From: Candidatus Omnitrophota bacterium
GTDB lineage: Bacteria > Omnitrophota > Gorgyraeia > Zapsychrales > JANLHA01
Direction of reading: 5' to 3'
Assembly: GCA_022711395.1 (NCBI GenBank)
Contig: JAKLFA010000002.1
Span: 67,864 to 131,863, forward strand
Length of the DNA stretch: 64,000 bases
In this document: positions 1 through 37,658 of the stretch, piece by piece
How positions within the stretch are numbered: position 1 is the first letter of the stretch
Layout: every line of letters begins with the position of its first letter
Translations under genes and position numbers: made by a program
The notes under the pieces: generated by a model
The model's database searches: none
The model's input: only the letters and a program-made list of their open reading frames with translations
What the model was told of the DNA's origin: nothing

Positions 1-128
1 GGTTGGCTTTGCGCAGATTTAAGAGGTAGTTTGAGGTTCCTTATTCGAACACGAAGGTGTTTAACATAGATAAAAATAGACCTTAACAAATACTAAACCA
101 AAAATTATTTTTGGGAAGGAGAAAAACA

Positions 129-941
129 ATGAAAAAGGTCCTCGTAACATTAGCGATCGTGTTGTTTGCAGCTGGCAGCGCGAACGCTATGCCGATGATC
201 CTGGATCCGGGTTCTATCGCGGGTCTTGGTGTCACAGGCCAGACGGGCGTATTTGACCAACTTGGCATTTACGTCCAGACCACATCAACCGATTATGTTA
301 GCGGTTCTTTCGGTGATGTTGGTGATCTAGCTGTTCAGTCACTGATCGGGGCAGGCCCGGTTGTGACAAGAGGGTTAAACACGCCTGATGCAGCCACGCC
401 ATGGTATCTTGTCGGCGGCTGGTCAAATCTTTCCGGTTATCAAGGCGCTCTTCCTGGAACGTTTGTTTATACGTCAGGGACGCTTGATCTGTATGTCAAC
501 AATACCGGATATGCATTTGGCCCGACCGTTGCTGCAGGTGATGGTTCTGGATTTACTGGTACGAAAGTTGCGACATTGTCGCTGCTTTATGGTACCGGTG
601 CTTTAGTTCCAGACTCAAGCCCTGATGGTTTTGGCGGGACTGTGGATCTGACCTGGGAATTCACTTGGTTACAGAATGGTTTCTGGTTAGATGCTAATGG
701 CAATCCGATCATTCTGGCTAACTTGAGCCAGGGTGAGAGATTATTCGCTATCGCTGATGCGAATACGGATCGTGTTGCTTTTGGCGCCGGAGACGGCCAG
801 GTTGTTTCTCGGTATATTTATTCAGATCATAATGGATCTGTCACGATCGGTGTTGTTCCGGAGCCTACAAGCATGGTCTTGTTCGGAACAGGCCTTTTCG
901 GCTTAGCCGGTGCAGGTCTTCGTAAGAAAATTTTGGGATAA
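129..941 (+). CDS. PEP-CTERM sorting-domain secreted protein (exosortase substrate)
   Basis: ATG at 129 preceded by ggaagga RBS; the track ORF begins at an upstream TTG at 111. N-terminal signal peptide KKVLVTLAIVLFAAGSANA. Gly/Thr-rich body. C-terminus VPEPTSMVLFGTGLFGLAGAGLRKK is a canonical PEP motif + TM helix + basic tail. Confidence 0.7.
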   Translation: MKKVLVTLAIVLFAAGSANAMPMILDPGSIAGLGVTGQTGVFDQLGIYVQTTSTDYVSGSFGDVGDLAVQSLIGAGPVVTRGLNTPDAATPWYLVGGWSNLSGYQGALPGTFVYTSGTLDLYVNNTGYAFGPTVAAGDGSGFTGTKVATLSLLYGTGALVPDSSPDGFGGTVDLTWEFTWLQNGFWLDANGNPIILANLSQGERLFAIADANTDRVAFGAGDGQVVSRYIYSDHNGSVTIGVVPEPTSMVLFGTGLFGLAGAGLRKKILG

Positions 942-971
942 TTTTTATCTCAAAATTCTTTATACACAAAA

Positions 972-1005
972 AAGCATTCCCCTTCGGGGGAATGCTTTTT
1001 TGTTT
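972..1005 (+). terminator. Rho-independent terminator
   Basis: aagcattcccc-ttcg-ggggaatgctt perfect hairpin followed by a T-tract (ttttttgtttt), directly after the PEP-CTERM gene. Confidence 0.6.
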
Positions 1006-1047: not shown

Positions 1048-3375
1048 ATGACTTTTTTTCACCGTTTCATAAGTTCCGTTTTGCGTCATCCGTATCGCAC
1101 TCTTGCAGTTACGCTCATTTTTCTTGCCGTGTCGTTGGCCCTTTTTCCGCAGATCCGCATTGATGACAGCCTGGATGTTTTTTTTGATAAACACAGCCGG
1201 CATTTCATTGATTTCGAGGCCTGGAAAGAACAGTTCGGAAGCGATGAGCTGGTCATTGTGGGCCTGGCGACCGATGAGGTCTTCACTGTTGACAATTTAA
1301 ATTTGATCAAAACGCTTACGGAACAGTTTGAATCCCTGGAAGCGGTGGAGGACGTGACCAGCCTTTCAACGGTCAATCACGCTGTTGGAATGGGAGAGGA
1401 TTTTATTGTGGAACGCCTGATGGAAGGGCTTCCGCAAACGCCGCAGGAGATGGCGAGCCTTCGTCAGGAGGCGCTCGGAAACCCCTTGTATGTCCAGAAC
1501 GTCATTTCCAAAGACGGGAAAGTCGCCGCCCTGATCCTTGAGCTGGAATACGGGCTTGAGGGCGGTGCTCATAAAAAGAAGGTGATGGAAGGTGTCCAAA
1601 AGATCCTTAAAGCTGCGGCCCCTTCGGATGTGAGGTATTATGTCAGCGGGCTTACGGCGATCGAATATTATTACACCAAATATATGCAGGAAGACCTGAA
1701 ATCCTTCGGGCCGTTTATGTTCTTGATGGTGGCGTTCATCGTTTATTTAACGTTCCGGAAATGGCGGCTGGTCATTCTGCCGCTGTCGGCGATCCTGGCC
1801 AGCCTGGTCATGACCATGTCGCTGCTGGTCCTTTTCAAATTTTCGATCAATAATGTGACCACGATCATCCCGCCGATTCTTTTGGCCATCATGGTGGCCG
1901 ACAGCATCCACGTGATCGGCGAAGGGGTCGCGCGCAAACGCGCGATCAGGGACGGTTCAGAAAACGACAGCGTGTTTTTTGAAGAAACCATCCGTCATCT
2001 GCTGTTTCCGTGTTTTTTGACCAGCATCACGACCGCGGTAGGGTTTTGGTCTTTGACGATGAGCCGCATCCCGCCGGTCAAAGAGCTGGGGCTGGTCGTG
2101 GGGATCGGGGTGGCGTTCGCGTATCTTCTTACGTTCACATTTATGCCGGCGCTGGCCGTGGCGACCCGGGCCTTTAAAGGGGTCGGCCCGGAATCCGGCG
2201 AAAAAAAGATCAAGGGTTTTGACCGGCTCTTTGACCGTTTCCTTGAGGGGTTGGCGATTTTTAACGAACGTTTTGCCCGCTGGATCATTGTGGGCAGCGT
2301 GGTCTTGGTGGCCGTGTCCGTTTGGGGGATCAGCCGGCTGCGGGCGGAGACCAGCATTATTGAGGCGTTCCAAAAAAAGAGCGACATTTACCGTTCGACA
2401 GAATTTCTGGAAGACCATTTAAGCGGTGTTCATCCTTTGAATATTTCGCTGAAGGCGAAATCACCCGACGCCTTTTTGCATCCTGAAATGCTTAAGCGCA
2501 TTGAAGCCTTGAGCGCCTTTCTATACAGCATTGAGGAGGTGGACAAGGTCTCCTCGGTCAACGATTATTTGAAGGACATCAATCAATCGTTCCACAATGA
2601 GGATCCGGTGTTTTATGCATTGCCGGACACCAAAGAGATGGCGGCGCAGTATGTCCTTCTTTACGGAAGGGAAGACCTGGAGGATTTTGTGGATGAACAG
2701 TGGCAGTGGGCCACGGTGCGTGTGCGTCTAAAGGAACACAGCAGCGTGAAGCTTGAGCATGTGATCAAAAAGATCGATGAATATGTCCAAGAAAATTTTG
2801 CTGACCTTGAGGAGCGGAACACTTTAGGCCAAACGGTCCTGGAAGTGGACACGAATAACAGCGTGACCTTGGGCCAGGTCCAAAGCCTGGGAATGGCGAT
2901 GGCGGTGATCTTCGGGATGATGTTCTTGGTGTTCCGGTCCGTGCCGGTCGGGGTCGTGAGCATGGTCCCTAATATCCTGCCGATCCTTTTAAATTTCGGG
3001 ATCATGGGGATCTTTAACATCCGCCTGGATTCAGCCACCTCCATGATCGCGGCCATCGGCATCGGGATCGTGGTGGATGACACGATCCACTTTCTGCACG
3101 GGTTCGGTGAATTTTTAAGTGGGCATGGGGATTATACCAGGGCCATGCATGAGACGCTTAAGACGAGGGGCCGGCCGATCATTTTTACTTCGGTGGTCCT
3201 GTTCTTCGGGTTCGGGGTGGTGGGATTTTCGAAATTCATGCTCACGGCGTATTTCGGGATCCTGACGGCGCTTTTGATGTTCACAGCGCTGCTGGCGGAC
3301 CTGATGCTGACGCCGAGCCTTTTGATCGTGTTCAAACCCCCGTTTTGGAAGGGAGGGGATAAAGAAAATGACTGA
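1048..3375 (+). CDS. MMPL/RND-superfamily membrane transporter (sterol-sensing-domain type, HpnN-like lipid exporter)
   Basis: 775 aa with two 5-6 TM blocks separated by large soluble loops. MMPL-like motifs around the TM blocks (e.g. ...ADSIHVIGEG...; ...GIVVDDTIHFLHGF...). Confidence 0.75.
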   Translation: MTFFHRFISSVLRHPYRTLAVTLIFLAVSLALFPQIRIDDSLDVFFDKHSRHFIDFEAWKEQFGSDELVIVGLATDEVFTVDNLNLIKTLTEQFESLEAVEDVTSLSTVNHAVGMGEDFIVERLMEGLPQTPQEMASLRQEALGNPLYVQNVISKDGKVAALILELEYGLEGGAHKKKVMEGVQKILKAAAPSDVRYYVSGLTAIEYYYTKYMQEDLKSFGPFMFLMVAFIVYLTFRKWRLVILPLSAILASLVMTMSLLVLFKFSINNVTTIIPPILLAIMVADSIHVIGEGVARKRAIRDGSENDSVFFEETIRHLLFPCFLTSITTAVGFWSLTMSRIPPVKELGLVVGIGVAFAYLLTFTFMPALAVATRAFKGVGPESGEKKIKGFDRLFDRFLEGLAIFNERFARWIIVGSVVLVAVSVWGISRLRAETSIIEAFQKKSDIYRSTEFLEDHLSGVHPLNISLKAKSPDAFLHPEMLKRIEALSAFLYSIEEVDKVSSVNDYLKDINQSFHNEDPVFYALPDTKEMAAQYVLLYGREDLEDFVDEQWQWATVRVRLKEHSSVKLEHVIKKIDEYVQENFADLEERNTLGQTVLEVDTNNSVTLGQVQSLGMAMAVIFGMMFLVFRSVPVGVVSMVPNILPILLNFGIMGIFNIRLDSATSMIAAIGIGIVVDDTIHFLHGFGEFLSGHGDYTRAMHETLKTRGRPIIFTSVVLFFGFGVVGFSKFMLTAYFGILTALLMFTALLADLMLTPSLLIVFKPPFWKGGDKEND

Positions 3376-4282
3376 TCGTCAGCAATATCTTCATAACGAA
3401 GGTCTTTTTTATAAGAAGGCGTTTGAGCGCAATATCGGGATCCTGACCGAGGCGGAGCAGGAGAAACTGCGTCAGGCGCGCGTGGCCGTCGTGGGCTGCG
3501 GCGGCGTGGGAGGGGTGCATATCCTTAATGCGGTGCGCCTGGGCGTCGGGAATTTGAACATTGCCGATATGGACGTCTTTGATGTGGTCAACATTCAGCG
3601 CCAGTGCGGCGCGTATTTAGACACCATAGGCCGCAATAAGGCTGAGGTGCTGTGCGCGAGCGCGATGGCCGTCAATCCTTATGTGAAGGTCAAGACGTTT
3701 ATTGATGGGGTGTATGATGAGACCGTGGATGAGTTTTTGGAAGGGGTCGATCTGTTCATTGACGGCATTGATTTCTTTTGCATTGACATGAGGCGCCAGC
3801 TTTTTATGAGGGCCTATGAACTTGGGATCCCGGCGGTGACGGCCGGGCCGATCGGTTTCGGCAGTGCGCTTTTGGTGTTCATGCCCGGCGGGATGAGCTT
3901 TGACGAGTATTTTGATATCAGGGATGAGATGTCCTATGAGGAGAGGATGATCGCCTTCGCCGTGGGGCTCGCGCCGGCATCCGTTCATTTGAAATACATG
4001 AATCTGAAAAAGGTCGATGTCGCCAAGAAGACCGGGCCGGCGTTGGTCTCATCCTGCGGGCTGGCCAGCGCGCTGGTGATGACAGAGGTTCTTCGCATCC
4101 TTTTGCGCCGTCCGGGATTAAGGCCCGTGCCGCATTATCTGCAGCTGGACCCGTATCTTTCCGCCTACAAGTCCGGATATCTTTGGCTGGGGAATAAAAA
4201 TCCTGTTCAGCGTTTGAAACGGACGATCGTCAAGCGCATGCTGAAAAGGGAACACCGACATCACGGAGAAAGCCATGAATAA
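3368..4282 (+). CDS. ThiF/MoeB/HesA-family E1-like adenylyltransferase
   Basis: Rossmann motif VAVVGCGGVGGVHILNAVRLGVGNLNIADMDVFDVVNIQRQ. 304 aa. Overlaps the upstream MMPL gene by 8 nt (translational coupling). Confidence 0.7.
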   Translation: MTDRQQYLHNEGLFYKKAFERNIGILTEAEQEKLRQARVAVVGCGGVGGVHILNAVRLGVGNLNIADMDVFDVVNIQRQCGAYLDTIGRNKAEVLCASAMAVNPYVKVKTFIDGVYDETVDEFLEGVDLFIDGIDFFCIDMRRQLFMRAYELGIPAVTAGPIGFGSALLVFMPGGMSFDEYFDIRDEMSYEERMIAFAVGLAPASVHLKYMNLKKVDVAKKTGPALVSSCGLASALVMTEVLRILLRRPGLRPVPHYLQLDPYLSAYKSGYLWLGNKNPVQRLKRTIVKRMLKREHRHHGESHE

Positions 4283-5042
4283 ACGATATCTGTGCGTGCT
4301 GGCAATGGTATGGATGGTGTGCGCTGATGTTTCGGCGCAGACTTTGAGCGGGCCGGAGCTTGCGCAAATGATCTATGACCGGCCCGACGGGATGGACCGT
4401 TCCATGAACGTGGACATGGTCCTGGTGGACAAGAAGGGTAATGAGCGGCCGCGCACGCTGGTGCTGTTCGCCAGGGATGAGGGTCCGCTGGCCAAAACGT
4501 ATCTGGAGTTTTTGACGCCGGAGGATATCAAGGCCACGAAATTCCTTTCCATGGAACAGGCCCAGGGTGATGATATCCAGTATCTTTACCTTCCGGCGCT
4601 GGGAAGGGCCAGACGCATCGTGAGCAGCCAGAAAAATCTGCGTTTTGTGAACACGGATTATACCTATGAGGATATGCAAAGGCGCAAGCCTTCCGAGGAT
4701 GAACACCAGATCCTCCGTGAAGAAATTTATAACGGCCGGCCGTGTTACGTGCTTGAAAGTGTTCCGGTCTCCGCGAATTCACAGTATGGCCGCCGGGTAA
4801 GCTGGGTGGACAAGTTCAGCCTGGTGGCGCTGCATACGGACTTTTATGATAAAAAGGGGCGTTTGGTCAAAGTCTTTGAGGTCCTTTCCATGAAAGTGGT
4901 GGATGGGTTTTGGACGGTCATCAAGAGCCGGATGGAAGATCTTGAAGAGGCGCATCAGACGTTGATGACCGTGACGGAAGTCCGTTACGACCAGGGGATC
5001 GAGGGCGCAAAATTTGAGCTGCGCGCGCTGGAACAGCGATAG
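4275..5042 (+). CDS. LolA-like outer-membrane lipoprotein-sorting family protein (periplasmic lipid carrier partner of MMPL transporters)
   Basis: Signal peptide MNKRYLCVLAMVWMVCADVSAQ. About 230-aa mature beta-rich protein. Gene position directly downstream of MMPL, where LolA-like (PF17131-type) partners are typically found. Overlaps ThiF by 8 nt. Confidence 0.45.
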   Translation: MNKRYLCVLAMVWMVCADVSAQTLSGPELAQMIYDRPDGMDRSMNVDMVLVDKKGNERPRTLVLFARDEGPLAKTYLEFLTPEDIKATKFLSMEQAQGDDIQYLYLPALGRARRIVSSQKNLRFVNTDYTYEDMQRRKPSEDEHQILREEIYNGRPCYVLESVPVSANSQYGRRVSWVDKFSLVALHTDFYDKKGRLVKVFEVLSMKVVDGFWTVIKSRMEDLEEAHQTLMTVTEVRYDQGIEGAKFELRALEQR

Positions 5043-5067: not shown

Positions 5068-6495
5068 ATGGGGAAGGGGGCGAGAAGGATGAAAAACAGG
5101 ACGGGCGTGGTGCTGGTTTTGACATTTGCCTTCAGCGTGTGCGCGGCTTTGGCTCAGGCGGCGGTCTGGCCGGACCTGGTGGAAGTGGAGTGGACCCCTT
5201 CGGTGGAGGTGTGGTCCCTGAACTATGTTGAAGCGGTCGAAAACAATGATTATGAGGACGCTGCCGCCACGGACAGCTGGGTCCGCGCGTTCAACGAATT
5301 CTGGATCGAAGAACATGACCTGTTCATCAAGGCCGACGGGCAGTGGCGTTATAACGCCTGGAACGGCGGGCTTGAGAATGAAAGCCATGGGGAAGCGTCG
5401 TTCCGCGAGGTCTACGGGGAACTGCGCAAAGAGCATTACCGTTTTTCCGCCGGGGACCAGATCCTGACCTGGGGGAAAATGGATGACATCACGATCCTGG
5501 ACCGCGTCAATCCTCAGGATTACCGTCATTTCGTTCTCTATGATAAGCAGGAAAGAAAGGACCCCGTCCTGATGATGCGCCATGAATATTTCGGGGACGG
5601 TTACGGCTTTGAAACGGTTTATAAGCCGTATTTTGAGGCTTCTAAGGTGGATTATTTCGGGCGGAATTTTGCCGCCTTCGGGCATTTGAAGGAAGTGGTG
5701 GACTTAGGCGGCTACAGCGCGCTCCAGAAGTCGACGGTGCAGGGGATCGGGATCCGGGACGAGGACCGGGCTACGGAGCACAGCCTTGAGAACGGCGAGC
5801 TCGCGCTGCGTTATCGCGGCCATCTGAATGACGTGGATTACGGGCTGTATTATATGAACCAGCGCAATTCCATTCCGGTCCTGAGAGAATCATCGCCGGT
5901 CGGAAACACCGTAAAAGCTTTTTTGTATGACCCGACCCTGGCAACGCTGGACACGCTGGTTTCAGCGTCTCCCACCAGTGAGGACCTGGCGCTTACGGCC
6001 GCGCATCCGAGGGTCCAGACCGTGGGCGCGGACTGGGAAACGGTCCTGGGTGAATATGGCGTGCGGGGGGAGATGGCCGTGATGATGGGGATGCCGTTTT
6101 TGAACGAGGATTATTCTTATACCGAAAAGGACACGGTCATGGTCGGTGTAGGCGTCGACCATACTTTCGAGAACAGCGTTTACGCGGACCTTCAGTATGT
6201 TCAGCAGTATATTTTCGCCTATGATAAGCTTTACGCGCAGGAGGAGGCGCCGTTTTTTATCGCGGGGACGGTGAGCCGGGATTTCGCCCGCGGCAAGTTC
6301 AATGCCGGCCTGGACTGGACCTGGAACGCCTCTTACGGGGATTGGATGTTCAATCCTGAGCTGCTTTATAAGCCGTGGGACAGCCTTCATATTGCCGTCG
6401 GAAGTTTCATTTTTGAGGAGGGCAGCGCCAGCACGCTGTTCGGCCGCTATGACACGGGCGATATTATTTATGTGAGTTTGAAGGGAGTCTTTTAA
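5068..6495 (+). CDS. Putative outer-membrane beta-barrel protein
   Basis: Signal peptide ...VLVLTFAFSVCAALAQA. Alternating amphipathic, aromatic-rich strands. C-terminal ...YVSLKGVF ends in Phe, as in OM barrel sorting signals. Confidence 0.4.
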   Translation: MGKGARRMKNRTGVVLVLTFAFSVCAALAQAAVWPDLVEVEWTPSVEVWSLNYVEAVENNDYEDAAATDSWVRAFNEFWIEEHDLFIKADGQWRYNAWNGGLENESHGEASFREVYGELRKEHYRFSAGDQILTWGKMDDITILDRVNPQDYRHFVLYDKQERKDPVLMMRHEYFGDGYGFETVYKPYFEASKVDYFGRNFAAFGHLKEVVDLGGYSALQKSTVQGIGIRDEDRATEHSLENGELALRYRGHLNDVDYGLYYMNQRNSIPVLRESSPVGNTVKAFLYDPTLATLDTLVSASPTSEDLALTAAHPRVQTVGADWETVLGEYGVRGEMAVMMGMPFLNEDYSYTEKDTVMVGVGVDHTFENSVYADLQYVQQYIFAYDKLYAQEEAPFFIAGTVSRDFARGKFNAGLDWTWNASYGDWMFNPELLYKPWDSLHIAVGSFIFEEGSASTLFGRYDTGDIIYVSLKGVF

Positions 6496-6587: not shown

Positions 6588-7028
6588 ATGGGATCTCAGC
6601 ACTTAGAGCGATTACGACAGGTCATTTCAAGCGATCAGCGCCGCTGTGAACGCATAGAGCTTCCGTTGAAGATGCTGTATGCGTCCCAGCCTGGCCATGG
6701 AGGCCAACTGGATTGGAAGGGGCCGGTATTGCTGGATAATATCGGCGGGGAAGGGATCGGATTTAATTCCAAGGACCTGATACAGGAAAATGAGGAGCTT
6801 TTGATCCGGATGTATCTGCCGGATGATGACTTGCCGGCGGTCTTTATCGGCAAGGTGGTCTGGGCGAAAGAGGACCCGTCTGCCAAGCGCTGCGGCTGCC
6901 GGGAATATTCTTACGGGATCCATATTGAAAAATATGATCCGCAGACTGAGGCCAGGTTCATGGGGTTCATGTCCGATCAAATTCTGGGAAAATACCTTGA
7001 TGAGTCAGGGGATCTAAAGGACATTTAA
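6588..7028 (+). CDS. PilZ-domain (c-di-GMP-binding) protein
   Basis: RRCERIEL (RxxxR) followed by DNIGGEGIGF (D/NxSxxG-like), the two PilZ signature motifs. Confidence 0.55.
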   Translation: MGSQHLERLRQVISSDQRRCERIELPLKMLYASQPGHGGQLDWKGPVLLDNIGGEGIGFNSKDLIQENEELLIRMYLPDDDLPAVFIGKVVWAKEDPSAKRCGCREYSYGIHIEKYDPQTEARFMGFMSDQILGKYLDESGDLKDI

Positions 7029-7034
7029 GGACAA

Positions 7035-7880
7035 ATGAATATGATGTTAGAACATGCCGGCATGCGCTCGATATTCAGCGGGATCGAATACCGTGTTGCG
7101 CGCAGCAGAGATGAATTGGCCCAGGCCTTTCATCTGGTCTATGAAGAATATCTGAAACAGGGCTACATTCATGAACATCCGTCGAAAATGCGGCTGTCTT
7201 TGCATAATCTGGTTCCTGAAACAACGACATTCATCGCCAAAGTGGATTCAACGGTTGTAGCGACGGCGACAGTCATCCCGGATTCGCCGCTGGGCTTGCC
7301 GATGGACGAGCTTTATCGGGAGGAACTCGCCGGTTTGCGCGACTCAGGAGAGAGGCTTTGCGAGGTTTCCATGCTCGCGCACAGCAGCGATCTTCTCAGT
7401 GACAAGGTCCCGTTGATGTTCAACGCCAAAAAGATGTTCCTGATCTTTTTCCTGTTCAAGCACGTCTTTGACTACGCGGTGCAGGAAGAAGCGCTGGATT
7501 ATATCTGTATCACGGTCAATCCGAAGCACTCGGCGATCTATGATTCGCTTTTGTTCAAGAACCTGGATGACCAGGTCAAGTATTACGGGAAGGTCAACGG
7601 CGCTCCGGCGATCGCCAAGGTCCTGAACCTTTCAACGATCGAGCAGGAATCCGCTCTGTCCAAACGGCATAATATGCACAAAATGTTCTTCAGCGGCAGG
7701 ACCGATCCCCGCCGTTTTGATGAAAAGTTCCGTTTCGGTATCGATGATATCAAATATTTTTTTGTGGACCAGGTCAACGCATTTGAAAACGCCAGTAAAG
7801 ATGAGGTCCGGTATATCATGGACGCATATCCCGAATATGATCTGAGCGGGATCATTCCCTTGCACATGATAAGGCCGTGA
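7035..7880 (+). CDS. N-acyl amino acid synthase-like GNAT acyltransferase (FeeM/OlsB-like; PEP-CTERM-system-associated acyltransferase family)
   Basis: 281 aa. N-terminal AQAFHLVYEEYLKQGYIHEHP...TTTFIAKVDSTVVATATVIP matches the autoinducer-synthase-like GNAT pattern of N-acyl amino acid synthases. 7 nt downstream of PilZ and 31 nt upstream of the ligase fusion. Confidence 0.5.
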   Translation: MNMMLEHAGMRSIFSGIEYRVARSRDELAQAFHLVYEEYLKQGYIHEHPSKMRLSLHNLVPETTTFIAKVDSTVVATATVIPDSPLGLPMDELYREELAGLRDSGERLCEVSMLAHSSDLLSDKVPLMFNAKKMFLIFFLFKHVFDYAVQEEALDYICITVNPKHSAIYDSLLFKNLDDQVKYYGKVNGAPAIAKVLNLSTIEQESALSKRHNMHKMFFSGRTDPRRFDEKFRFGIDDIKYFFVDQVNAFENASKDEVRYIMDAYPEYDLSGIIPLHMIRP

Positions 7881-7911: not shown

Positions 7912-10908
7912 ATGCTGCATTCATCTCAACAGATCTTTGAGGTTTTCCGCGACGGGGCGCAAAAGGCGGGTGAGAAGGACGCGCTGTTATACAAGCAGAA
8001 GGCCCATTATGAGTCGATCAGCTATATCGCCCTCCTGAGGCAGGCGGCCGCCTTTGCCCGTGTTCTGCATAACCATCAGATCTCTCCCGGCGACAAGGTT
8101 GCGCTGGTCCTTGAGAACAGGCCGGAGTTCGCCGGTGCCGTGATGGCGGTCTGGGCTTGCGGGGCGGTGGCGGTCCCGTTGGACGTCCAATATTCCACCC
8201 TTGAGATCAAAACGCTTTTGAAACATTCTCAGGCCAGGCTGGTGGTCTCTCAGCAGCGGCTTTTCCATCTTCATGAGGAATTGCGTTCGATCTGCCCTTG
8301 GCTGACCGTGGATGACCCGGATCTGAAATATCATTTGCGCGAAGCTGCGGGGTCCGCCCGGGCGGTCGAGTTGGAGCATTCTCCGGCGGTTGACCTGGCG
8401 GCGTTGTTCTACACGTCAGGGACGACGGGAGAGCCCAAGGCGGTCATGCTCAGCCACGCGAATATCCTTTCGAATGTGAGGGCGTTCCATCAGCTTGAGA
8501 TCGCTTCTTCCAAAGACGTGGTCGTTTCGGTCCTGCCGTTGCATCACACCTACGCGTTTACGACGACACTGTTATATCCGCTTTTGATCGGGGCCACGGT
8601 CAGTTATCCAAAGAGCATCGCTTCCGTGGACCTTTTGTCCTGCATCAGGGAGACGTGCGCCACGGTCTTTGTCGGAGTGCCGCAGATCTTCAAGCATATG
8701 CATAAGGCCGTGGTCGACCGTATTGGAGGGATGAAGGCCCTGAAGCGTTCGATGGTGCTTGCCGCCGGAGAGCTTTGCATGAATTCCCGCAAGGTCCTGG
8801 GGGCCAATCCCGGGCGGGTTCTTTTTTCGCAGATCCACCATCAATTCGGGCCGTCGTTGCGCCTGATGGTCTCCGGCGGGGCGAAGCTGGACCCGGAGAT
8901 TTCCAGGGATTTTTATCGCTGGGGATTTTCTTTGATCGAGGGTTATGGCCTTACGGAGACATCACCGGTCGTTTCTTTTTCACTGCCCAATCAGGCGAAG
9001 TTCGGTTCCGTCGGAAGGGTGATCCCGGGAGTCGGGGTGGATATCAAGGACCCTGACGCGGCCGGTATCGGTGAGGTCCTGGTCAAAGGCCCTAATGTGA
9101 TGATGGGTTATTACAGGAACCAGGCCGAGACGGACCGGGTCCTTTATGACGGATGGTTCCATACGGGGGACCTGGGATATATCGACCGGGATGGATTTCT
9201 TTTTTTGACCGGCCGCAGCAAAGAGATCTTGGTCTTGGAGAACGGGGAGAACATCAATCCGGAGGAGCTGGAAAATTATTATGGCCAGAATCCCTTTATC
9301 AAGGAGATCGCGGTCCTTTCTTTTAAGGCTGAGCGTTCCTCGGGGGTCACGGCCGAAAAGCTTGTGGCGTTGATCGTCGCTGACCAGGACCATTTTTTGG
9401 CCCAGAAGGAAACGAATATCAAGGCCAGGATCAAATGGGAACTTGAGAACATGTGCGTGCACATGCCCAGTTATAAGAGGGTGACCGGATTTGAGGTTTC
9501 GCAGGAAGAGCTGCCCCGCACCAGGCTGGGGAAATTACGGCGTTTTGAGCTGCCCGAGATCTATGCCCGCCTTCGTGAGCGGTCGCAGGTCAAACAAAGG
9601 GTGCAGATCGTCGAGCCGGTGGAGGGGCGTTCTGAGCTGTTTGATCAGGCGCTGGGTTATCTCGAGGACGCGGTGGGCCGCCCCGTGGGCCTTAAGGAGC
9701 ATTTGGAACTGGACGTCGGGCTGGACTCGTTGGGCCGCATGGAGCTTTTGCTGGGGCTTCAGGAAAAGCTGGGTTTGAGCCTGACAGAGGAACAGTCGAT
9801 GCAGTTCTTTGTTTGCGTGACGGTCGAAGATCTTTTGGATAAGTTGAGGGAATTTTCAGCGTCGCTGCCCAGCGGGATCGCGGTGGATGAGGATGCCAAG
9901 ATCCTGAGCGGACTTTCGGCCGGCAGGGAGAATTTCGCGGTGGTGGCTGAGCGAGCGAAGTCCTTTTTGCGAGAGGCCCTGAACCGTGAATCGATCCAGG
10001 AGTCCGATCATTTGGAGCTGGACCTGGGGCTTGATTCGCTGGGGCGGATGGAAGTCCTTTTGAGCCTTCAGGAGCGTCTGGGGTTGACCATGTCGGATGA
10101 GCAGGCGGTGGGATTTTTCATGGCTTCGACGGTCGCGGAACTTCTTGAGAACCTTAAAAAAGAATTGCCCCGGATGCAGGAGGGCTCCGGCGCAAAGGCG
10201 TTCATGTGGTCGGATATCTTAAGACAGGATCCCGACGCTGACAAACTTAAGCGCATCAACACGGGGGACTTCAGCCTGCCCGCCCGTTTGTTCAATGTCG
10301 CGGGATGGTGTTTTTTCCGCGCCTTTTTTAAGTTGTTCTACCGGTTGAAGGTGGAGGGTCTTGAGAACGCAAACACCGAGGGTCCGTTCTTGATCTGTTC
10401 GAATCACACGACCTATTTTGATGCGTTGATTATTTTAAGCGCGTTGCCGTTCCGGAAATTTTTGCAGGTGTTCTTTTTGGGGGACAGCAAGTTCCTTAAC
10501 CATCCCGTGCTTCGTCCGTTCGGCCGGGCCGCCAGATTTATTCCGATCGAATTCACGCATAACATGGTGGAGGCGTTAAAGGTCTGCGCGTATGTCTTGC
10601 GGAATCAAAAAATCGTTTGTTACTTTCCGGAAGGGCAGCGGTCGATCGATGGGGAGGTGAAGGAATTCCGCAAAGGGGTGGGGGTCCTTGTTAAAGAGTT
10701 GGGAGTGCCGGTCCTGCCGGCGTTTATCAGCGGGGCTTTTGAATGCTGGCCACGCGGGCAGCGGTTTCCCAAATTGTTTGGCAACGTCACGTTGCGTTTT
10801 GGTAAAATGACCTCTTCAAAAGAGCTTCTTTTCCGGGTTTTTGACGCGGAGGATGATTATGAGCAAACCGCTGAGAACTTACGGATCCGCGTCTCATCTT
10901 TGAAGTAA
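7912..10908 (+). CDS. Multidomain fusion: fatty-acid AMP-ligase (acyl-ACP synthetase-like) - ACP - ACP - 1-acyl-glycerol-3-phosphate/lyso-lipid acyltransferase (PlsC/OlsA family)
   Basis: Adenylation motifs YTSGTTGEPKAV, GYGLTET, GWFHTGDLGY. Two phosphopantetheine sites LELDVGLDSLGRMELL (~nt 9715) and LELDLGLDSLGRMEVL (~nt 10020). C-terminal acyltransferase motifs CSNHTTYFD (HX4D) and FPEGQRS. Confidence 0.8.
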   Translation: MLHSSQQIFEVFRDGAQKAGEKDALLYKQKAHYESISYIALLRQAAAFARVLHNHQISPGDKVALVLENRPEFAGAVMAVWACGAVAVPLDVQYSTLEIKTLLKHSQARLVVSQQRLFHLHEELRSICPWLTVDDPDLKYHLREAAGSARAVELEHSPAVDLAALFYTSGTTGEPKAVMLSHANILSNVRAFHQLEIASSKDVVVSVLPLHHTYAFTTTLLYPLLIGATVSYPKSIASVDLLSCIRETCATVFVGVPQIFKHMHKAVVDRIGGMKALKRSMVLAAGELCMNSRKVLGANPGRVLFSQIHHQFGPSLRLMVSGGAKLDPEISRDFYRWGFSLIEGYGLTETSPVVSFSLPNQAKFGSVGRVIPGVGVDIKDPDAAGIGEVLVKGPNVMMGYYRNQAETDRVLYDGWFHTGDLGYIDRDGFLFLTGRSKEILVLENGENINPEELENYYGQNPFIKEIAVLSFKAERSSGVTAEKLVALIVADQDHFLAQKETNIKARIKWELENMCVHMPSYKRVTGFEVSQEELPRTRLGKLRRFELPEIYARLRERSQVKQRVQIVEPVEGRSELFDQALGYLEDAVGRPVGLKEHLELDVGLDSLGRMELLLGLQEKLGLSLTEEQSMQFFVCVTVEDLLDKLREFSASLPSGIAVDEDAKILSGLSAGRENFAVVAERAKSFLREALNRESIQESDHLELDLGLDSLGRMEVLLSLQERLGLTMSDEQAVGFFMASTVAELLENLKKELPRMQEGSGAKAFMWSDILRQDPDADKLKRINTGDFSLPARLFNVAGWCFFRAFFKLFYRLKVEGLENANTEGPFLICSNHTTYFDALIILSALPFRKFLQVFFLGDSKFLNHPVLRPFGRAARFIPIEFTHNMVEALKVCAYVLRNQKIVCYFPEGQRSIDGEVKEFRKGVGVLVKELGVPVLPAFISGAFECWPRGQRFPKLFGNVTLRFGKMTSSKELLFRVFDAEDDYEQTAENLRIRVSSLK

Positions 10909-11019: not shown

Positions 11020-11874
11020 ATGATCTTAAAGCGCGGTTTTTCTGTGATGCGGTCCTCTGTAGTGACGTTGATCCAAAATCCCGGTATTCTGTATCCATAT
11101 GCGATCGTAGGGATCCTTCAGTTGTTCATTCTTGAGATCCTTTTTTTCATGCCCCGGTATCCGCTTATTCAGATCTTTGGGCCGATGATCCTGGCGCTTA
11201 AGAAGTCGCCATTTTTCTTGCATTACCCCTTTAATTTTGAAGTGGTGAACAGTTGGTTCCAGTCCCTGCAGGTGCCCTTCTATGTTTTTGTGCAGATCCT
11301 TTTTGTGGCCAAGGCTGTTCTGATCGTTCAAAAGACCGAACAGCGTCAGGCGGTGGAATCAATGCCGAAGGTCGCTTTTGGAAAATATGTGAATCTTGTG
11401 GTGGGGGCGGCGATCATTATCGGGCTGATGTATGCGTTCAATTACGGCTATTCGTTCTTGATCCGCAGGGCTGTTCAGATCCGTTCGACGTCGGGCCTTT
11501 ACTTTTTGATCAAGCAGGCCGTGATCCTGGGTGGGCCGTATATCAATTTGATGGTCTCGGCTTTTATCACGGCGTGCTTCGCTTATGTGATCCCGCTCAT
11601 CGCGATCGAAGGGGACAATGTCTTCAAGGCGGTTTTTCGGAATTTCAAATTGCTTAAAGGCGATTTTTTTGTCTTACTGGCTTTTTTGACGGTCGCGGCA
11701 TTGTGCTTTGTGCCGTTCCTTCTGGTGAAAACGAATGAGATCGCGATCCGTTCGATGATGACGCCTGAAGGCTGGCAGATGATCACGATCTTGGGCGCGG
11801 GGCTGATCCTTTTGATCGACGCTCTGCAGTATACAGGAATAACGATTGTATATCTCAAAAAGGATAGATCATGA
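11020..11874 (+). CDS. Polytopic membrane protein, unknown function
   Basis: 284 aa with about 7 hydrophobic helices. No recognisable catalytic motif. Confidence 0.5.
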   Translation: MILKRGFSVMRSSVVTLIQNPGILYPYAIVGILQLFILEILFFMPRYPLIQIFGPMILALKKSPFFLHYPFNFEVVNSWFQSLQVPFYVFVQILFVAKAVLIVQKTEQRQAVESMPKVAFGKYVNLVVGAAIIIGLMYAFNYGYSFLIRRAVQIRSTSGLYFLIKQAVILGGPYINLMVSAFITACFAYVIPLIAIEGDNVFKAVFRNFKLLKGDFFVLLAFLTVAALCFVPFLLVKTNEIAIRSMMTPEGWQMITILGAGLILLIDALQYTGITIVYLKKDRS

Positions 11875-12779
11875 AAAAAACACTCCTCGTTCTGGTCGGT
11901 CTGTTGGTTGCGGTCTATGTCGTCCTGACGTTGGTGGATACCAAATCAGAATATCTGCTGGAGAAAAAGCTTTGGCGGATCCAGAAAGATTTTGTGGCGA
12001 TCGCGCAGGACCCGAAAGCTGCGCCGGATAATCAGTATAAAGAAGCGATCGCCAAATACAGGGCGCTGATCCAGAAATACCCTAAGGCACGGCTGACGCC
12101 TCAGATGTATTTTCAGATCGGCCGTCTTGAAGAGATGCGGAAGAATTTTGACGGGGCGCGGGCGGTCTTTAAGGAGGCTTCGGAGGCGTTTAAGGATAAT
12201 TCATCGATCGTTTCAGACGCGATGTATCGGGTTGGACTTTCTTTCGAACAGGAGGGAAAGATCAATGATGCGATCGCGATCTACCGGGAGATCGGACGGG
12301 TATTTTCACGGACGCAGATCGGGTTTTCGATGCCGATCTATATTGCCAGTATTTATCGACGTTTAGGGGACCCGGTCAAGCAGAATCAGGCGCTTGCTGA
12401 GGCGGAAACGTTTTATCGGGCGATCCTTTCCGAGACGGAAGATGGATCAGCCTCTCAACTGGAGGTTTTGCGGGCCTTAACGACCGCTTTGCTGGGGCAG
12501 CAAAAATGGGGTGAGGCGTATCAAACTCTTGAGAGAACGTTGTTTTCTTTCGCCAGGTCCAAGCATTTGAGGCCGCAGGCTGCTGGAGGGATCGTTCGGA
12601 CCTTGAGCGTTGTGGGGGCTGGGCAACTGAATGACATGCCCAGGGTAATGAAGACCCTGGAAACTTTCAAGGAGCAGAATCCGGGCCATCCGCTGAACGC
12701 CTATCTTGAGCAGATCAAAGCGTCTCTTCAACAGATGAAGCAGGAAGAAAAGAAGGCGGCGGTCGTCGGGAATGAATAA
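11871..12779 (+). CDS. Membrane-anchored TPR-like repeat protein
   Basis: N-terminal TM LLVLVGLLVAVYVVLTLV, then helical-repeat (TPR-like) sequence. Start overlaps the previous gene by 4 nt and the end overlaps the kinase gene by 8 nt. Confidence 0.5.
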   Translation: MKKTLLVLVGLLVAVYVVLTLVDTKSEYLLEKKLWRIQKDFVAIAQDPKAAPDNQYKEAIAKYRALIQKYPKARLTPQMYFQIGRLEEMRKNFDGARAVFKEASEAFKDNSSIVSDAMYRVGLSFEQEGKINDAIAIYREIGRVFSRTQIGFSMPIYIASIYRRLGDPVKQNQALAEAETFYRAILSETEDGSASQLEVLRALTTALLGQQKWGEAYQTLERTLFSFARSKHLRPQAAGGIVRTLSVVGAGQLNDMPRVMKTLETFKEQNPGHPLNAYLEQIKASLQQMKQEEKKAAVVGNE

Positions 12780-37657: not shown

Positions 37658-37658
37658 A

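What the first reader, a model, noticed from the sequence alone, without database searches (positions are those of the whole stretch)
3368..4282. ThiF-type E1-like adenylyltransferase embedded in a lipid-transporter operon
E1-like enzymes normally sit with ThiS/MoaD-like sulfur carriers, ubiquitin-like proteins or microcin/RiPP precursors. Here the gene is translationally coupled on both sides (8-nt overlaps) to an MMPL transporter and a LolA-like carrier. No small GG-terminated partner ORF is visible nearby. This suggests adenylation of a carboxylate on a lipid or a carrier protein as part of the export pathway, which would be an undescribed role.
Basis: inference. Interest (0 to 1): 0.55.

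Follow-up and report, generated by a model that had tools for sequence, protein, structure and literature searches.

The report
ThiF-like lipid cyclase without its oxidase
The gene is real. It most likely belongs to a recently described group of ThiF-like enzymes that use ATP to activate and ring-close fatty-acylated amino acids, here in an unusual form that lacks the usual partner oxidase and sits inside an outer-membrane lipid-export operon of a PEP-CTERM/exosortase locus.

Summary
ORF 3368..4282 (304 aa) is a ThiF-family protein. It overlaps an MMPL/RND gene upstream and a LolA-like gene downstream by 8 nt each, and no small GG-ended ORF exists anywhere in the 64 kb.

The proposed mechanism, adenylation of a lipid carboxylate, is probably right, but it is not undescribed. 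The protein passes NCBIfam NF006077. It is 45-51% identical to ThiF-nitroreductase (FDO) fusion proteins built like the OxzB oxazolone synthetase. It is 48% identical to the middle domain of a FeeM-ThiF-FDO triple fusion on the Desulfovibrio vulgaris plasmid pDV. The window's FeeM-type N-acyl amino acid synthase (7035..7880) matches that fusion's N-terminus. Published work on OxzB, TyzB and TrzS shows such ThiF units cyclise N-acyl amino acids to acyl-oxazolones in an ATP-dependent reaction.

Three things appear new:
- The window and a clade of Omnitrophota relatives lack the FDO.
- The ThiF gene is often placed next to envelope exporter genes of several kinds.
- The system sits in PEP-CTERM/exosortase loci.

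The gene order MMPL-ThiF-LolA-DUF1302-PilZ-FeeM-FAAL/ACP/acyltransferase is conserved down to 54-59% identity.

Verdict: a new variant of a known kind, of moderate interest.

The parts
111..941 (+). PEP-CTERM protein (PepA-like). The true start is probably the ATG near position 129, after a GGAAGGAG ribosome-binding site.
   Evidence: PF07589 PEP-CTERM, E=7.7e-06, residues 249-271. NF033554 floc_PepA, E=1.8e-16, below its cutoff. Sequence read.
969..1005 (+). Terminator-like G+C hairpin followed by a T-run (aaaaagcattcccc-ttcg-ggggaatgctttttt). It separates the PEP-CTERM gene from the exporter operon.
   Evidence: Read directly from the sequence. Not tested with the terminator scanner.
1048..3375 (+). 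Inner-membrane MMPL / HAE3-type RND transporter, 775 aa.
   Evidence: PF03176, E=6.9e-36. TIGR00921 HAE3, E=4.3e-58, below its cutoff.
3368..4282 (+). The finding: a ThiF-like ATP-dependent N-acyl-amino-acid activating enzyme / cyclase (PRK08223 family). It is standalone, has no signal peptide and has no FDO partner.
   Evidence: PF00899, E=1.5e-42. NF006077, 363.9 bits against a cutoff of 266. Adenylation residues G43/G45/G46/G48, D67, N75/R78/Q79, K91 and D132/D135 align with E. coli ThiF and are at least 97% conserved in 84 relatives. AF2 model pLDDT 91.3.
4275..5042 (+). Periplasmic LolA-like (TP_0789-like) lipid carrier with an N-terminal signal sequence.
   Evidence: PF17131, E=7.1e-57.
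5068..6495 (+). DUF1302 protein with a signal sequence, presumed outer-membrane component.
   Evidence: PF06980, E=6.6e-11. Co-occurs with the LolA-like gene in 20+ loci.
6588..7028 (+). PilZ-domain protein.
   Evidence: PF07238, E=3.4e-07. Conserved in the cassette (L001, L003, L010, L026, L088). A PilZ gene is also present in the pDV locus.
7035..7880 (+). FeeM-type N-acyl amino acid synthase, the likely supplier of the ThiF substrate.
   Evidence: PF21926, E=4e-36. Matches the N-terminus of NF011425/PRK14852, E=8.5e-31. 40% identical over 182 aa to residues 32-199 of the pDV triple fusion.
7912..10908 (+). Fatty-acid AMP ligase, two carrier-protein domains and a PlsC-type acyltransferase fused in one protein (998 aa).
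   Evidence: PF00501 E=2.1e-81, PF00550 in 2 stretches, PF01553 E=8.2e-24.
11020..11874 (+). Conserved membrane protein with no family assignment.
   Evidence: No Pfam or NCBIfam hit. Conserved at the same position in L001, L003, L010, L026 and L088.
11871..12779 (+). TPR protein (YbgF/CpoB-like repeats).
   Evidence: TPR families. TIGR02795, E=6.8e-15, below its cutoff.
12772..14085 (+). GAF-domain sensor histidine kinase.
   Evidence: GAF, HisKA and HATPase_c domains.
14082..15485 (+). Sigma-54-dependent response regulator, close to the PEP-CTERM-box regulator family.
   Evidence: TIGR02915 PEP_resp_reg, 417.6 bits against a cutoff of 502.6. AtoC-like, 458.7 bits.

Best explanation
The gene encodes a cytoplasmic ThiF-like enzyme of the acyl-oxazolone type. 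Proposed pathway (inferred):
1. The FAAL-ACP-ACP-acyltransferase protein (7912..10908) activates a fatty acid onto its own carrier domain.
2. The FeeM-type synthase (7035..7880) transfers the acyl chain to the amino group of an amino acid, giving an N-acyl amino acid.
3. The ThiF protein binds ATP and adenylates the free alpha-carboxylate of that lipid. The amide oxygen then attacks the adenylate, closing a 5(4H)-oxazolone ring.
4. No flavin-dependent oxidase (FDO, nitroreductase superfamily) is present here. The ring would therefore stay saturated, or the activated carboxylate would be passed to another nucleophile.
5. The lipid leaves through the MMPL pump, the periplasmic LolA-like carrier and the DUF1302 outer-membrane protein, whose genes flank and overlap the ThiF gene. 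It reaches the outer membrane or cell surface of a cell that also deploys PEP-CTERM proteins.

Shown here: family membership, intact adenylation residues, domain-fusion links to FeeM and FDO, and conservation of the cassette. Inferred: the substrate, the ring closure and the export route.
For: 1. The protein exceeds the curated cutoff of NF006077/PRK08223 (363.9 against 266). It also matches the ThiF part of PRK14851 (ThiF+FDO, 356 bits) and of PRK14852 (FeeM+ThiF+FDO, 295 bits).
2. Domain fusions link the parts. DVU_RS16045 on D. vulgaris plasmid pDV (989 aa) is FeeM (43-198) + ThiF (316-565) + nitroreductase (609-). The window ThiF is 48% identical to it over 275 aa and the window FeeM is 40% identical over 182 aa.
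3. About 20 relatives are ThiF-FDO fusions of about 680 aa, 45-51% identical to the window protein. Many have a FeeM gene immediately upstream, which is the published oxzA-oxzB layout.
4. In 43 loci with at least 8 kb on each side, FeeM lies within 10 kb in 37. FDO is fused in 11, adjacent in 13 and within 10 kb in 11. FeeM or FDO is present in 42 of 43.
5. The adenylation residues align with E. coli ThiF, including D135 = ThiF D127, and are at least 97% conserved.
6. Published biochemistry supports the chemistry. OxzB needs ATP to make tyrazolones from N-acyl tyrosine (bioRxiv 10.1101/2020.06.11.147165). TyzB catalyses ATP-dependent cyclisation (PMC10404671). In TrzS, ThiF cyclisation precedes desaturation, and a dead FDO still yields the saturated cyclised product (PMC12856293).
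7. No GG-ended partner, thiamine gene or molybdopterin gene is present in the 64 kb.
Against: - No FDO homologue occurs in the window (E<=1 with a family HMM) or within 10 kb in the closest relatives. One defining partner of the characterised systems is therefore missing.
- I could not align the protein directly with TyzB, OxzB or TrzS.
- FeeM is 2.8 kb away rather than adjacent.
- In stieleriacine producers no oxazolone has been detected, and the authors call the ThiF role enigmatic (PMC12479983).
- Saturated 5(4H)-oxazolones are hydrolytically labile (general chemistry, from my own knowledge). A stable exported end product of that kind is therefore questionable.
- The PlsC-type acyltransferase domain has no assigned role in this scheme.
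Confidence: 0.62

Rival explanations
1. Ligase reading. ThiF adenylates the N-acyl amino acid, but the adenylate (or a transient oxazolone) is captured by a second nucleophile rather than released as a ring. Candidates are an amine or second amino acid, a hydroxyl group, or the thiol of one of the two carrier domains of the FAAL-ACP-ACP-AT protein. The product would be a larger lipid (a lipodipeptide, an ester or a diacylated aminolipid), which is then exported.
For: The FDO that normally stabilises the ring as a conjugated oxazolone is absent. The cassette carries a PlsC-type acyltransferase and two carrier domains. A cysteine, C230, is 90-97% conserved in the family, and E1-type enzymes often pass adenylates to thiols. 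No oxazolones have been detected in stieleriacine producers that carry the ThiF gene (PMC12479983).
Against: No condensation or ligase partner is evident. The Omnitrophota homologue in L003 is 892 aa with no carrier domain on record, so the second carrier domain is not conserved. The FAAL-ACP-AT gene also occurs in loci that do have an FDO (L062, L074, L077, L141). All characterised homologues release oxazolones.
Confidence: 0.2
2. Peptide or protein C-terminus modifier. ThiF adenylates the C-terminal carboxylate of a ribosomal product, as MccB and PaaA do. A possible target is the cytoplasmic tail of the neighbouring PEP-CTERM protein.
For: PEP-CTERM genes lie within 10 kb in 27 of 43 well-flanked loci. 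PaaA and MccB are among the structural neighbours.
Against: The protein is only 304 aa and the ThiF domain begins at about residue 20, so it has no N-terminal peptide-clamp domain of the kind found in MccB and PaaA. FeeM or FDO association (42 of 43 loci) is stronger than PEP-CTERM association (27 of 43). Fusions are to FeeM and FDO, never to peptide-handling domains. Identity to MccB and PaaA is only 16-19%.
Confidence: 0.07
3. Classical E1-like adenylyltransferase for a sulfur-carrier or ubiquitin-like protein encoded elsewhere in the genome. Its position in the exporter operon would be fortuitous.
For: General ThiF-fold homology: TIGR02356 E=3.6e-25 and MoeB models around 1e-22. E. coli ThiF and MoeB are the next-best structural matches.
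Against: Scores are far below every equivalog cutoff (88.6 against 275; 79.5 against 266). Homology to E. coli ThiF stops at residue 173, and the C-terminal half is specific to this family. The sequence contains no CxxC pair. No GG-ended ORF was found. The operon position is conserved across phyla.
Confidence: 0.03
4. Non-catalytic or accessory subunit of the exporter, for example a cytoplasmic docking or regulatory ATP-binding protein for the MMPL pump.
For: The gene overlaps exporter genes on both sides. An exporter gene is immediately adjacent in 29 of 65 loci, and these exporters are of three unrelated pump types. A conserved basic C-terminal helix is present at residues 279-299.
Against: All catalytic adenylation residues are retained under strong conservation. 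Many relatives have no exporter within 10 kb but do have FeeM and FDO (12 of 43). Fusions are to enzymes, not to transporter domains.
Confidence: 0.03

Closest known systems
OxzB oxazolone synthetase (ThiF-nitroreductase di-domain) with the OxzA N-acyltransferase, Pseudoalteromonas rubra (de Rond et al., bioRxiv 10.1101/2020.06.11.147165)
   Same: [quoted passage not shown] The window protein is 45-51% identical to the ThiF half of ThiF-FDO fusions of about 680 aa that have an upstream FeeM gene (L034, L036, L064, L086 and others). It scores 356 bits on the ThiF half of PRK14851.
   Different: The window protein is standalone at 304 aa and has no nitroreductase/FDO domain or gene nearby. It sits inside an exporter operon in a PEP-CTERM locus. 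The acyl donor is probably a cis-encoded FAAL-ACP rather than acyl-CoA. I did not align it directly with P. rubra OxzB.
TyzB (Rv2338c, 'MoeW') of the M. tuberculosis tyzACB acyl-tyrazolone cluster (PMC10404671)
   Same: It is a standalone ThiF homologue of about 300-320 aa that acts on N-acyl amino acids with ATP. The tyz genes lie next to mmpL9, so a link between this ThiF type and an MMPL transporter has a precedent.
   Different: TyzB works with the adjacent FDO TyzC, and the window has none. Its acyltransferase, TyzA, is a different and mostly mycobacterial family. There is no PEP-CTERM context.
TrzS (Rv1355c), a ThiF-FDO fusion making N-acyl tryptazolones (PMC12856293)
   Same: It provides the mechanistic precedent. 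ThiF cyclisation comes first, and a dead FDO still gives the saturated cyclised product, which is what an FDO-less system would be expected to make.
   Different: It is a more distant subcluster. The window protein scores only 73 bits on the Rv1355c family model NF005901.
DVU_RS16045, a FeeM-ThiF-FDO triple fusion (989 aa, PRK14852 type) on Nitratidesulfovibrio vulgaris Hildenborough plasmid pDV
   Same: It is 48% identical to the window ThiF and 40% identical to the window FeeM. It is embedded in a RefSeq-annotated XrtA/PEP-CTERM locus that also contains PEP-CTERM proteins, a PilZ protein, a sigma-54 regulator and a MacB-type ABC exporter with an adaptor.
   Different: All three activities are in one polypeptide, including the FDO. 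The exporter is an ABC/MacB type rather than MMPL/LolA-like/DUF1302. As far as I could find, it has not been characterised experimentally.
NAS genes linked to the PEP-CTERM/exosortase system (Craig, Cherry & Brady 2011, J Bacteriol 193:5707; known to me only by title, as cited in PMC7293339)
   Same: A FeeM-type synthase lies next to PEP-CTERM genes. Exosortase EpsH and EpsI lie directly upstream in the closest relatives.
   Different: That paper could not be read here, so I cannot say whether it mentions the ThiF gene. In the searchable library, no relevant paper mentions ThiF or oxazolone together with exosortase.
TcdA (tRNA t6A dehydratase) and AclA (PDB 9egb)
   Same: TcdA is a ThiF-fold enzyme that cyclodehydrates an N-acylated amino-acid moiety via adenylation (as summarised). 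AclA is the best structural match (TM 0.72/0.86).
   Different: Sequence identity is only about 19-22%. TcdA's substrate is tRNA. I could not find the function of AclA in the library.

Membership tests
ThiF/MoeB/E1 superfamily (PF00899) | ThiF-type nucleotide-binding fold with a Gly-rich loop, ribose-binding Asp, NxxRQ arginine motif, phosphate-binding Lys and Mg-binding Asp. | tested here: met
   PF00899, E=1.5e-42. G43xG45G46xG48, D67, N75/R78/Q79, K91 and D132/D135 align with E. coli ThiF residues 22-163. They are at least 97% conserved in 84 relatives. Foldseek gives probability 1.00 to ThiF, MoeB and MccB.
ThiF-like cyclase of acyl-oxazolone biosynthesis (OxzB / TyzB / TrzS type) | Sequence membership in the same ThiF subfamily as the characterised enzymes. 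| tested here: inconclusive
   The protein passes NF006077/PRK08223 (363.9 against 266), as do FDO-adjacent and FDO-fused relatives. It is 45-51% identical to ThiF-FDO fusions and 48% identical to the pDV triple fusion. The TyzB, OxzB and TrzS sequences themselves were not available.
ThiF-like cyclase of acyl-oxazolone biosynthesis (OxzB / TyzB / TrzS type) | [quoted passage not shown] | tested here: met
   FeeM, PF21926, E=4e-36, at 7035..7880 in the same operon. FeeM lies within 10 kb in 37 of 43 well-flanked relatives.
ThiF-like cyclase of acyl-oxazolone biosynthesis (OxzB / TyzB / TrzS type) | [quoted passage not shown] | tested here: not met
   A family HMM finds nothing at E<=1 in six-frame translations of all 64 kb. 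FDO is also absent within 10 kb in L001, L003, L010 and L026. It is present (fused, adjacent or within 10 kb) in 35 of 43 other relatives.
ThiF-like cyclase of acyl-oxazolone biosynthesis (OxzB / TyzB / TrzS type) | ATP-dependent cyclisation of an N-acyl amino acid to an oxazolone. | not testable with these tools
   This needs enzyme assays or lipid mass spectrometry.
MoeB / ThiF sulfur-carrier adenylyltransferases | Score above the equivalog cutoffs, a GG-terminated ThiS/MoaD partner, and Zn-binding CxxC pairs. | tested here: not met
   TIGR02356 scores 88.6 against 275.25, NF004281 79.5 against 266, and TIGR02355 65.5 against 376.55. 0 of 362 small ORFs end in GG. The 304-aa sequence has no CxxC pair. 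Homology to ThiF ends at residue 173.
MccB / PaaA peptide-modifying ThiF enzymes | An N-terminal peptide-clamp domain preceding the ThiF domain, and a precursor peptide gene. | tested here: not met
   The ThiF domain starts at residue 20 of 304. Matches to MccB and PaaA cover only the ThiF core at 16-19% identity. No candidate precursor is conserved next to the gene.
PEP-CTERM/exosortase-associated locus | PEP-CTERM protein genes together with exosortase EpsH/XrtA (and EpsI) in the neighbourhood. | tested here: inconclusive
   A PEP-CTERM gene is present at 111..941. No EpsH or EpsI is found in the window, but the window begins at the PEP-CTERM gene. In L001, L003, L009 and L010, EpsH and EpsI lie 3-8 kb upstream of that position.

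The most novel reading that the evidence does not exclude
The FDO-less ThiF would make a saturated 5(4H)-oxazolone (azlactone) or an equivalent activated N-acyl-aminoacyl species. That species is an electrophilic acyl donor. It would be handed directly to the MMPL / LolA-like / DUF1302 route because it is too reactive to accumulate. At the cell surface it would acylate an amine or hydroxyl on exopolysaccharide or on exosortase-processed PEP-CTERM proteins. That would supply the long-sought lipid or anchor chemistry of the PEP-CTERM/exosortase system. It would also explain why N-acyl amino acid synthases, ThiF cyclases, envelope-spanning lipid exporters and PEP-CTERM genes travel together across at least six phyla.
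Probability: 0.08. Interest if true: 0.85.

Novelty: new variant of a known kind. Interest (0 to 1): 0.45.

Why it matters
Acyl-oxazolone lipids and their ThiF-like cyclases were discovered only in 2020-2025, and their biological role is unknown. This locus and its relatives place that chemistry inside PEP-CTERM/exosortase loci, next to dedicated routes for moving lipid to the outer membrane, in Omnitrophota, Desulfobacterota, Nitrospirota, Planctomycetota, Acidobacteriota and Proteobacteria. [quoted passage not shown] The FDO-less clade predicts a different product, either a saturated azlactone or a further-coupled lipid. The triple-fusion gene on D. vulgaris Hildenborough plasmid pDV offers a genetically tractable organism in which to test the link. 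For annotation, it shows that PRK08223 'hypothetical protein / ThiF family adenylyltransferase' calls should not be read as molybdopterin or thiamine enzymes.

Tried and rejected
- Fold search against the AlphaFold database, to pull out TyzB (P95234): the library was not available.
- A second homology search seeded with a Thauera ThiF, hoping to reach named mycobacterial MoeW/TyzB: it returned only Zoogloeaceae relatives at 78-100% identity.
- Craig et al. 2011 (PMC3187218) is not held.
- Literature on AclA (PDB 9egb): nothing relevant found.
- Sigma-54 promoter consensus in the window: 18 matches against 29.7 expected, none upstream of the operon. There is therefore no support for direct sigma-54 control, despite the adjacent enhancer-binding regulator.
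- Classical E1 / ThiS-MoaD partner idea: rejected.
- An early impression that ThiF is flanked by exporter genes on both sides only when FDO is absent: rejected after metagenome locus L155 showed MMPL > ThiF-FDO fusion > LolA-like > DUF1302.
- An alternative oxidoreductase in the cassette replacing the FDO: none found among the operon ORFs.
- The rest of the window is housekeeping (ValRS, threonine and leucine pathway genes, trehalose genes, FtsH, glycosyltransferases) and holds no thiamine, molybdopterin or RiPP genes.

Full report
**1. The observation**

The ORF at 3368..4282 (+ strand, ATG start, 304 aa) is real.
- It hits Pfam ThiF (PF00899) with E=1.5e-42 over residues 20-263.
- The upstream ORF, 1048..3375, is an MMPL / HAE3-type RND transporter (PF03176, E=6.9e-36).
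- The downstream ORF, 4275..5042, is a LolA_like / TP_0789-like protein (PF17131, E=7.1e-57) with an N-terminal signal-like sequence.
- Reading the DNA shows ATGACTGA at 3368-3375 and ATGAATAA at 4275-4282. Both junctions are therefore 8-nt overlaps between a start and a stop codon.
- No ORF of 40-130 aa anywhere in the 64-kb window ends in Gly-Gly (0 of 362).
- The rest of the window is housekeeping and holds no thiamine, molybdopterin or RiPP genes.

**2.

The ThiF gene lies in a long co-directional gene run. A PEP-CTERM protein gene (111..941) comes first, followed by a terminator-like hairpin near 969-1005. The run then continues as follows:
- MMPL transporter (1048..3375)
- ThiF (3368..4282)
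- LolA-like carrier (4275..5042)
- DUF1302 protein with a signal peptide (5068..6495)
- PilZ protein (6588..7028)
- FeeM-type N-acyl amino acid synthase (7035..7880; PF21926, E=4e-36)
- a 998-aa fusion of an AMP-binding fatty-acid ligase, two carrier domains and a PlsC-type acyltransferase (7912..10908)
- a conserved membrane protein with no family assignment (11020..11874)
- a TPR protein (11871..12779)
- a GAF histidine kinase (12772..14085)
- a sigma-54-dependent response regulator close to the PEP-CTERM-box regulator model (14082..15485; TIGR02915, 417.6 bits against a cutoff of 502.6)

This is a lipid synthesis and export cassette attached to a PEP-CTERM locus. It is more than a transporter operon with a stray E1-like gene.

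**3. What the ThiF protein is**

Against NCBIfam, the protein fails every MoeB, ThiF, TcdA and SAMP-E1 equivalog by a wide margin (for example TIGR02356 scores 88.6 against a cutoff of 275). It passes NF006077/PRK08223, labelled 'hypothetical protein', at 363.9 against 266. It also matches two longer models over their ThiF portions:
- PRK14851 (679 aa): 356 bits.
- PRK14852 (989 aa): 295 bits, over model positions 312-590.

The window's FeeM protein matches positions 32-201 of the same PRK14852 model (E=8.5e-31). That points to a domain fusion linking the two genes.

I found such a fusion in an annotated genome. DVU_RS16045 on Nitratidesulfovibrio (Desulfovibrio) vulgaris Hildenborough plasmid pDV is 989 aa. 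Its domains are FeeM (43-198), ThiF (316-565) and nitroreductase (from 609).
- The window ThiF is 48% identical to it over 275 aa (E=5e-92).
- The window FeeM is 40% identical over 182 aa (E=2e-33).
- RefSeq annotates the flanking genes as an XrtA/PEP-CTERM system: a TIGR03016 outer-membrane protein, an XrtA-associated ATPase, a tyrosine autokinase, a chain-length determinant, a TIGR03013 glycosyltransferase and THxN PEP-CTERM proteins. The locus also has a PilZ protein, a sigma-54 regulator and a MacB-type ABC exporter with an adaptor.

**4. The family and its neighbours**

The family is large. There are 1110 hits at E<=1e-10 for the window protein and at least 8000 at E<=1e-20 for a Thauera member. 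One scan of species-representative genomes gave 514 confirmed relatives, of which I analysed the best 80. I added contigs found through exact-protein look-ups and 80 metagenome loci. I called ORFs myself and searched them with family profiles built from the window and reference loci.

Among 43 loci with at least 8 kb on both sides:

| Feature within 10 kb of ThiF | Loci (of 43) |
|---|---|
| FeeM-type synthase | 37 |
| FDO fused to ThiF (proteins of about 680 aa) | 11 |
| FDO adjacent | 13 |
| FDO otherwise within 10 kb | 11 |
| FDO absent | 8 |
| FeeM or FDO | 42 |
| PEP-CTERM genes | 27 |
| Exosortase EpsH | 11 |
| Envelope exporter | 31 |

The nitroreductase-type gene scores on the Acg/Rv3131 FMN-oxidoreductase model and on the C-terminal half of the Rv1355c model. 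That identifies it as the FDO type.

The exporters are of three kinds: MMPL + LolA-like + DUF1302, MacB/ABC + adaptor + OEP, and ABC/MacB + LolA-like + DUF1302. In 29 of 65 loci an exporter gene is the immediate same-strand neighbour of ThiF.

**5. Conservation of the exact gene order**

The full cassette recurs in Omnitrophota MAGs at 54-80% ThiF identity. It runs EpsH-EpsI-sugar transferase-PEP-CTERM-MMPL-ThiF-LolA-like-DUF1302-PilZ-FeeM-FAAL/AT-membrane protein-TPR-(kinase)-regulator.
- Loci carrying it: L001/L008 (GCA_038222225.1), L003 (GCA_015233405.1), L010 and L026. L009, L011, L013 and L061 are partial.
- A 97%-identical relative (L088, GCA_029561995.1) has the same 8-nt overlaps.
- The nearest named relatives are all Candidatus Omnitrophota, so the window very probably comes from that phylum.
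- A neighbour-joining tree of 84 ThiF domains (no bootstrap, so indicative only) places the window in a single FDO-less Omnitrophota clade. That clade is sister to a clade with adjacent FDO genes and is nested within FDO-associated diversity.
- Metagenome contig L155 carries MMPL > ThiF-FDO fusion > LolA-like > DUF1302. The sandwich position therefore also exists with the oxidase, and the window's form looks like a derivative that lost it.

No relative has a ThiS/MoaD neighbour, and the arrangement is not unique to this genome.

**6. What is already known about such proteins**

- de Rond et al. found a ThiF-nitroreductase di-domain enzyme, OxzB, usually preceded by an N-acyltransferase gene, oxzA. 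OxzB converts N-acyl tyrosine or phenylalanine to oxazolones only when ATP is present. It was described as the first ThiF-family enzyme acting on a small molecule (bioRxiv 10.1101/2020.06.11.147165).
- In M. tuberculosis, TyzA N-acylates amino acids. TyzC (an FDO) desaturates the product, and TyzB (Rv2338c, a 318-aa standalone ThiF homologue formerly called MoeW) performs ATP-dependent cyclisation. The cluster lies next to mmpL9 (PMC10404671).
- For TrzS (Rv1355c), cyclisation by the ThiF domain precedes desaturation. Mutating the adenylation-motif Asp abolishes both products. An FDO-dead variant still makes the saturated cyclised intermediate. A sequence-similarity cluster of 2,416 sequences contains TyzB, OxzB and TrzS, and most of its members neighbour an FDO, an acyltransferase or both (PMC12856293).
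[quoted passage not shown] No oxazolone was detected in them, and the authors call the ThiF role enigmatic (PMC12479983).
- The earlier stieleriacine paper noted a PEP-CTERM gene in the cluster and cited the NAS-exosortase link reported by Craig et al. 2011 (PMC7293339).

In the searchable library, only one paper mentions 'ThiF' with 'exosortase' and only one mentions 'oxazolone' with 'exosortase'. Neither is relevant.

**7. Anatomy of the protein**

- Alignment to E. coli ThiF covers only query residues 30-173. It conserves the Gly-rich loop (G43, G45, G46, G48), D67, N75/R78/Q79, K91, and D132/D135, which correspond to ThiF D124/D127.
- These residues are at least 97% conserved in 84 relatives.
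- The C-terminal half (residues 174-304) has no counterpart in ThiF or MoeB. It carries family-specific conserved motifs: F178-D-E-Y181-F182, F197-x-x-G200-x-x-P203, G223-P224, C230 (90-97% conserved), P255, D261 and Q281 within a basic terminal helix.
- There is no CxxC pair, no rhodanese domain, no N-terminal peptide-clamp domain and no signal peptide.
- The AlphaFold2 model is confident (pLDDT 91.3, pTM 0.89).
- Its best solved neighbours are AclA of Tenacibaculum discolor (9egb, 19% identity, TM 0.72/0.86), then E. coli ThiF, PaaA, MoeB and MccB.

**8. Most likely mechanism**

This combines what is shown with what is inferred.
1. The FAAL-ACP module loads a fatty acid (inferred).
2. FeeM transfers it to an amino acid (inferred; by homology to FeeM, which uses acyl-ACP according to the title of Van Wagoner & Clardy 2006, cited).
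3. [quoted passage not shown]
4. Without an FDO, the ring remains a saturated 5(4H)-oxazolone, or the activated carboxylate is captured by another nucleophile (inferred).
5. The MMPL pump, the LolA-like carrier and DUF1302 move the lipid to the outer membrane or surface (inferred from domain families and signal peptides).

I put 0.62 on the core claim, that ThiF activates the carboxylate of the FeeM product. I am much less sure of the final product.

The main rival (0.20) is that the adenylate is used for ligation rather than ring release. Lesser rivals are a peptide or PEP-CTERM C-terminus as substrate (0.07), a classical E1 role (0.03) and a non-catalytic exporter subunit (0.03).

**9. Novelty and verdict**

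Three things appear new relative to the literature I could search:
- a clade of standalone ThiF cyclases with no FDO in the locus
- the recurrent placement of the ThiF gene beside, or inside, envelope-spanning lipid exporter operons of three different types
- the systematic embedding of the NAS-ThiF(-FDO) module in PEP-CTERM/exosortase loci across many phyla, including a triple fusion in the XrtA locus of a model sulfate reducer

I classify it as a new variant of a known kind, with interest 0.45.

**10. Limits**

- No direct comparison with TyzB, OxzB or TrzS sequences was possible.
- Absence of the FDO is shown only for the 64-kb window and for 10 kb on each side in relatives, not for whole genomes.
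- The tree has no support values.
- Neighbourhood calls rest on my own ORF calling and on profiles built in-session.
- Craig et al. 2011 could not be read.

Noticed in passing
L091 11062-14031 (NC_005863.1 37254-40223, DVU_RS16045): D. vulgaris Hildenborough plasmid pDV encodes a 989-aa FeeM-ThiF-nitroreductase triple fusion inside a RefSeq-annotated XrtA/PEP-CTERM locus. It is annotated only as 'ThiF family adenylyltransferase'. This is a tractable organism for testing the link between NAS, ThiF and the exosortase system.
   Followed up: partly
L089 2136-2798 and L090 456-1118: In two metagenome contigs whose ThiF is 97% identical to the window's, a Y1-type (IS200-like) transposase gene sits between the PEP-CTERM gene and the MMPL gene. 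The window has only a terminator-like hairpin at that position.
   Followed up: no
window 11020-11874: A 284-aa multi-pass membrane protein has no Pfam or NCBIfam hit but is conserved at the same cassette position in all the Omnitrophota relatives. FDO-containing loci of other phyla often carry an Rce1/CPBP-like membrane protease instead.
   Followed up: no
window 3368-4282, residue C230: A cysteine at the start of helix 227-245 is invariant in the 23-sequence alignment and 90-97% conserved in 84 relatives. The oxazolone literature I read assigns it no role. It could be a thioester-forming residue.
   Followed up: partly
L155 (metagenome contig Ga0268298_10000314): The gene order is MMPL > ThiF-FDO fusion > LolA-like > DUF1302. 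This is the same sandwich as in the window but with the oxidase domain present, which suggests the window's form arose by loss of the FDO.
   Followed up: partly
L007 / L028 (Anaerolineales MAG GCA_033577755.1): ThiF sits between a MacB-type permease gene and an adaptor (HlyD-type) gene, with an AMP-binding ligase gene upstream and no FeeM, FDO or PEP-CTERM gene within 10 kb. It is the only well-flanked locus lacking both FeeM and FDO.
   Followed up: no
window 969-1005: A strong terminator-like hairpin with a T-run lies between the PEP-CTERM gene and the MMPL gene, followed by an AT-rich stretch. The exporter/ThiF operon is therefore probably transcribed separately from the PEP-CTERM gene. 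No sigma-54 consensus was found there.
   Followed up: partly
window 60472-63879 (- strand): A 1135-aa HEAT/PBS-lyase-repeat protein lies at the low-GC end of the window (GC 0.42-0.47, against about 0.51 elsewhere). It is unrelated to the finding.
   Followed up: no
window 35553-40428: Two PMT_2-type (ArnT/Agl23-like) membrane glycosyltransferase genes and a methyltransferase-GT2 fusion gene form a small glycosylation cluster. It is unrelated to the finding.
   Followed up: no
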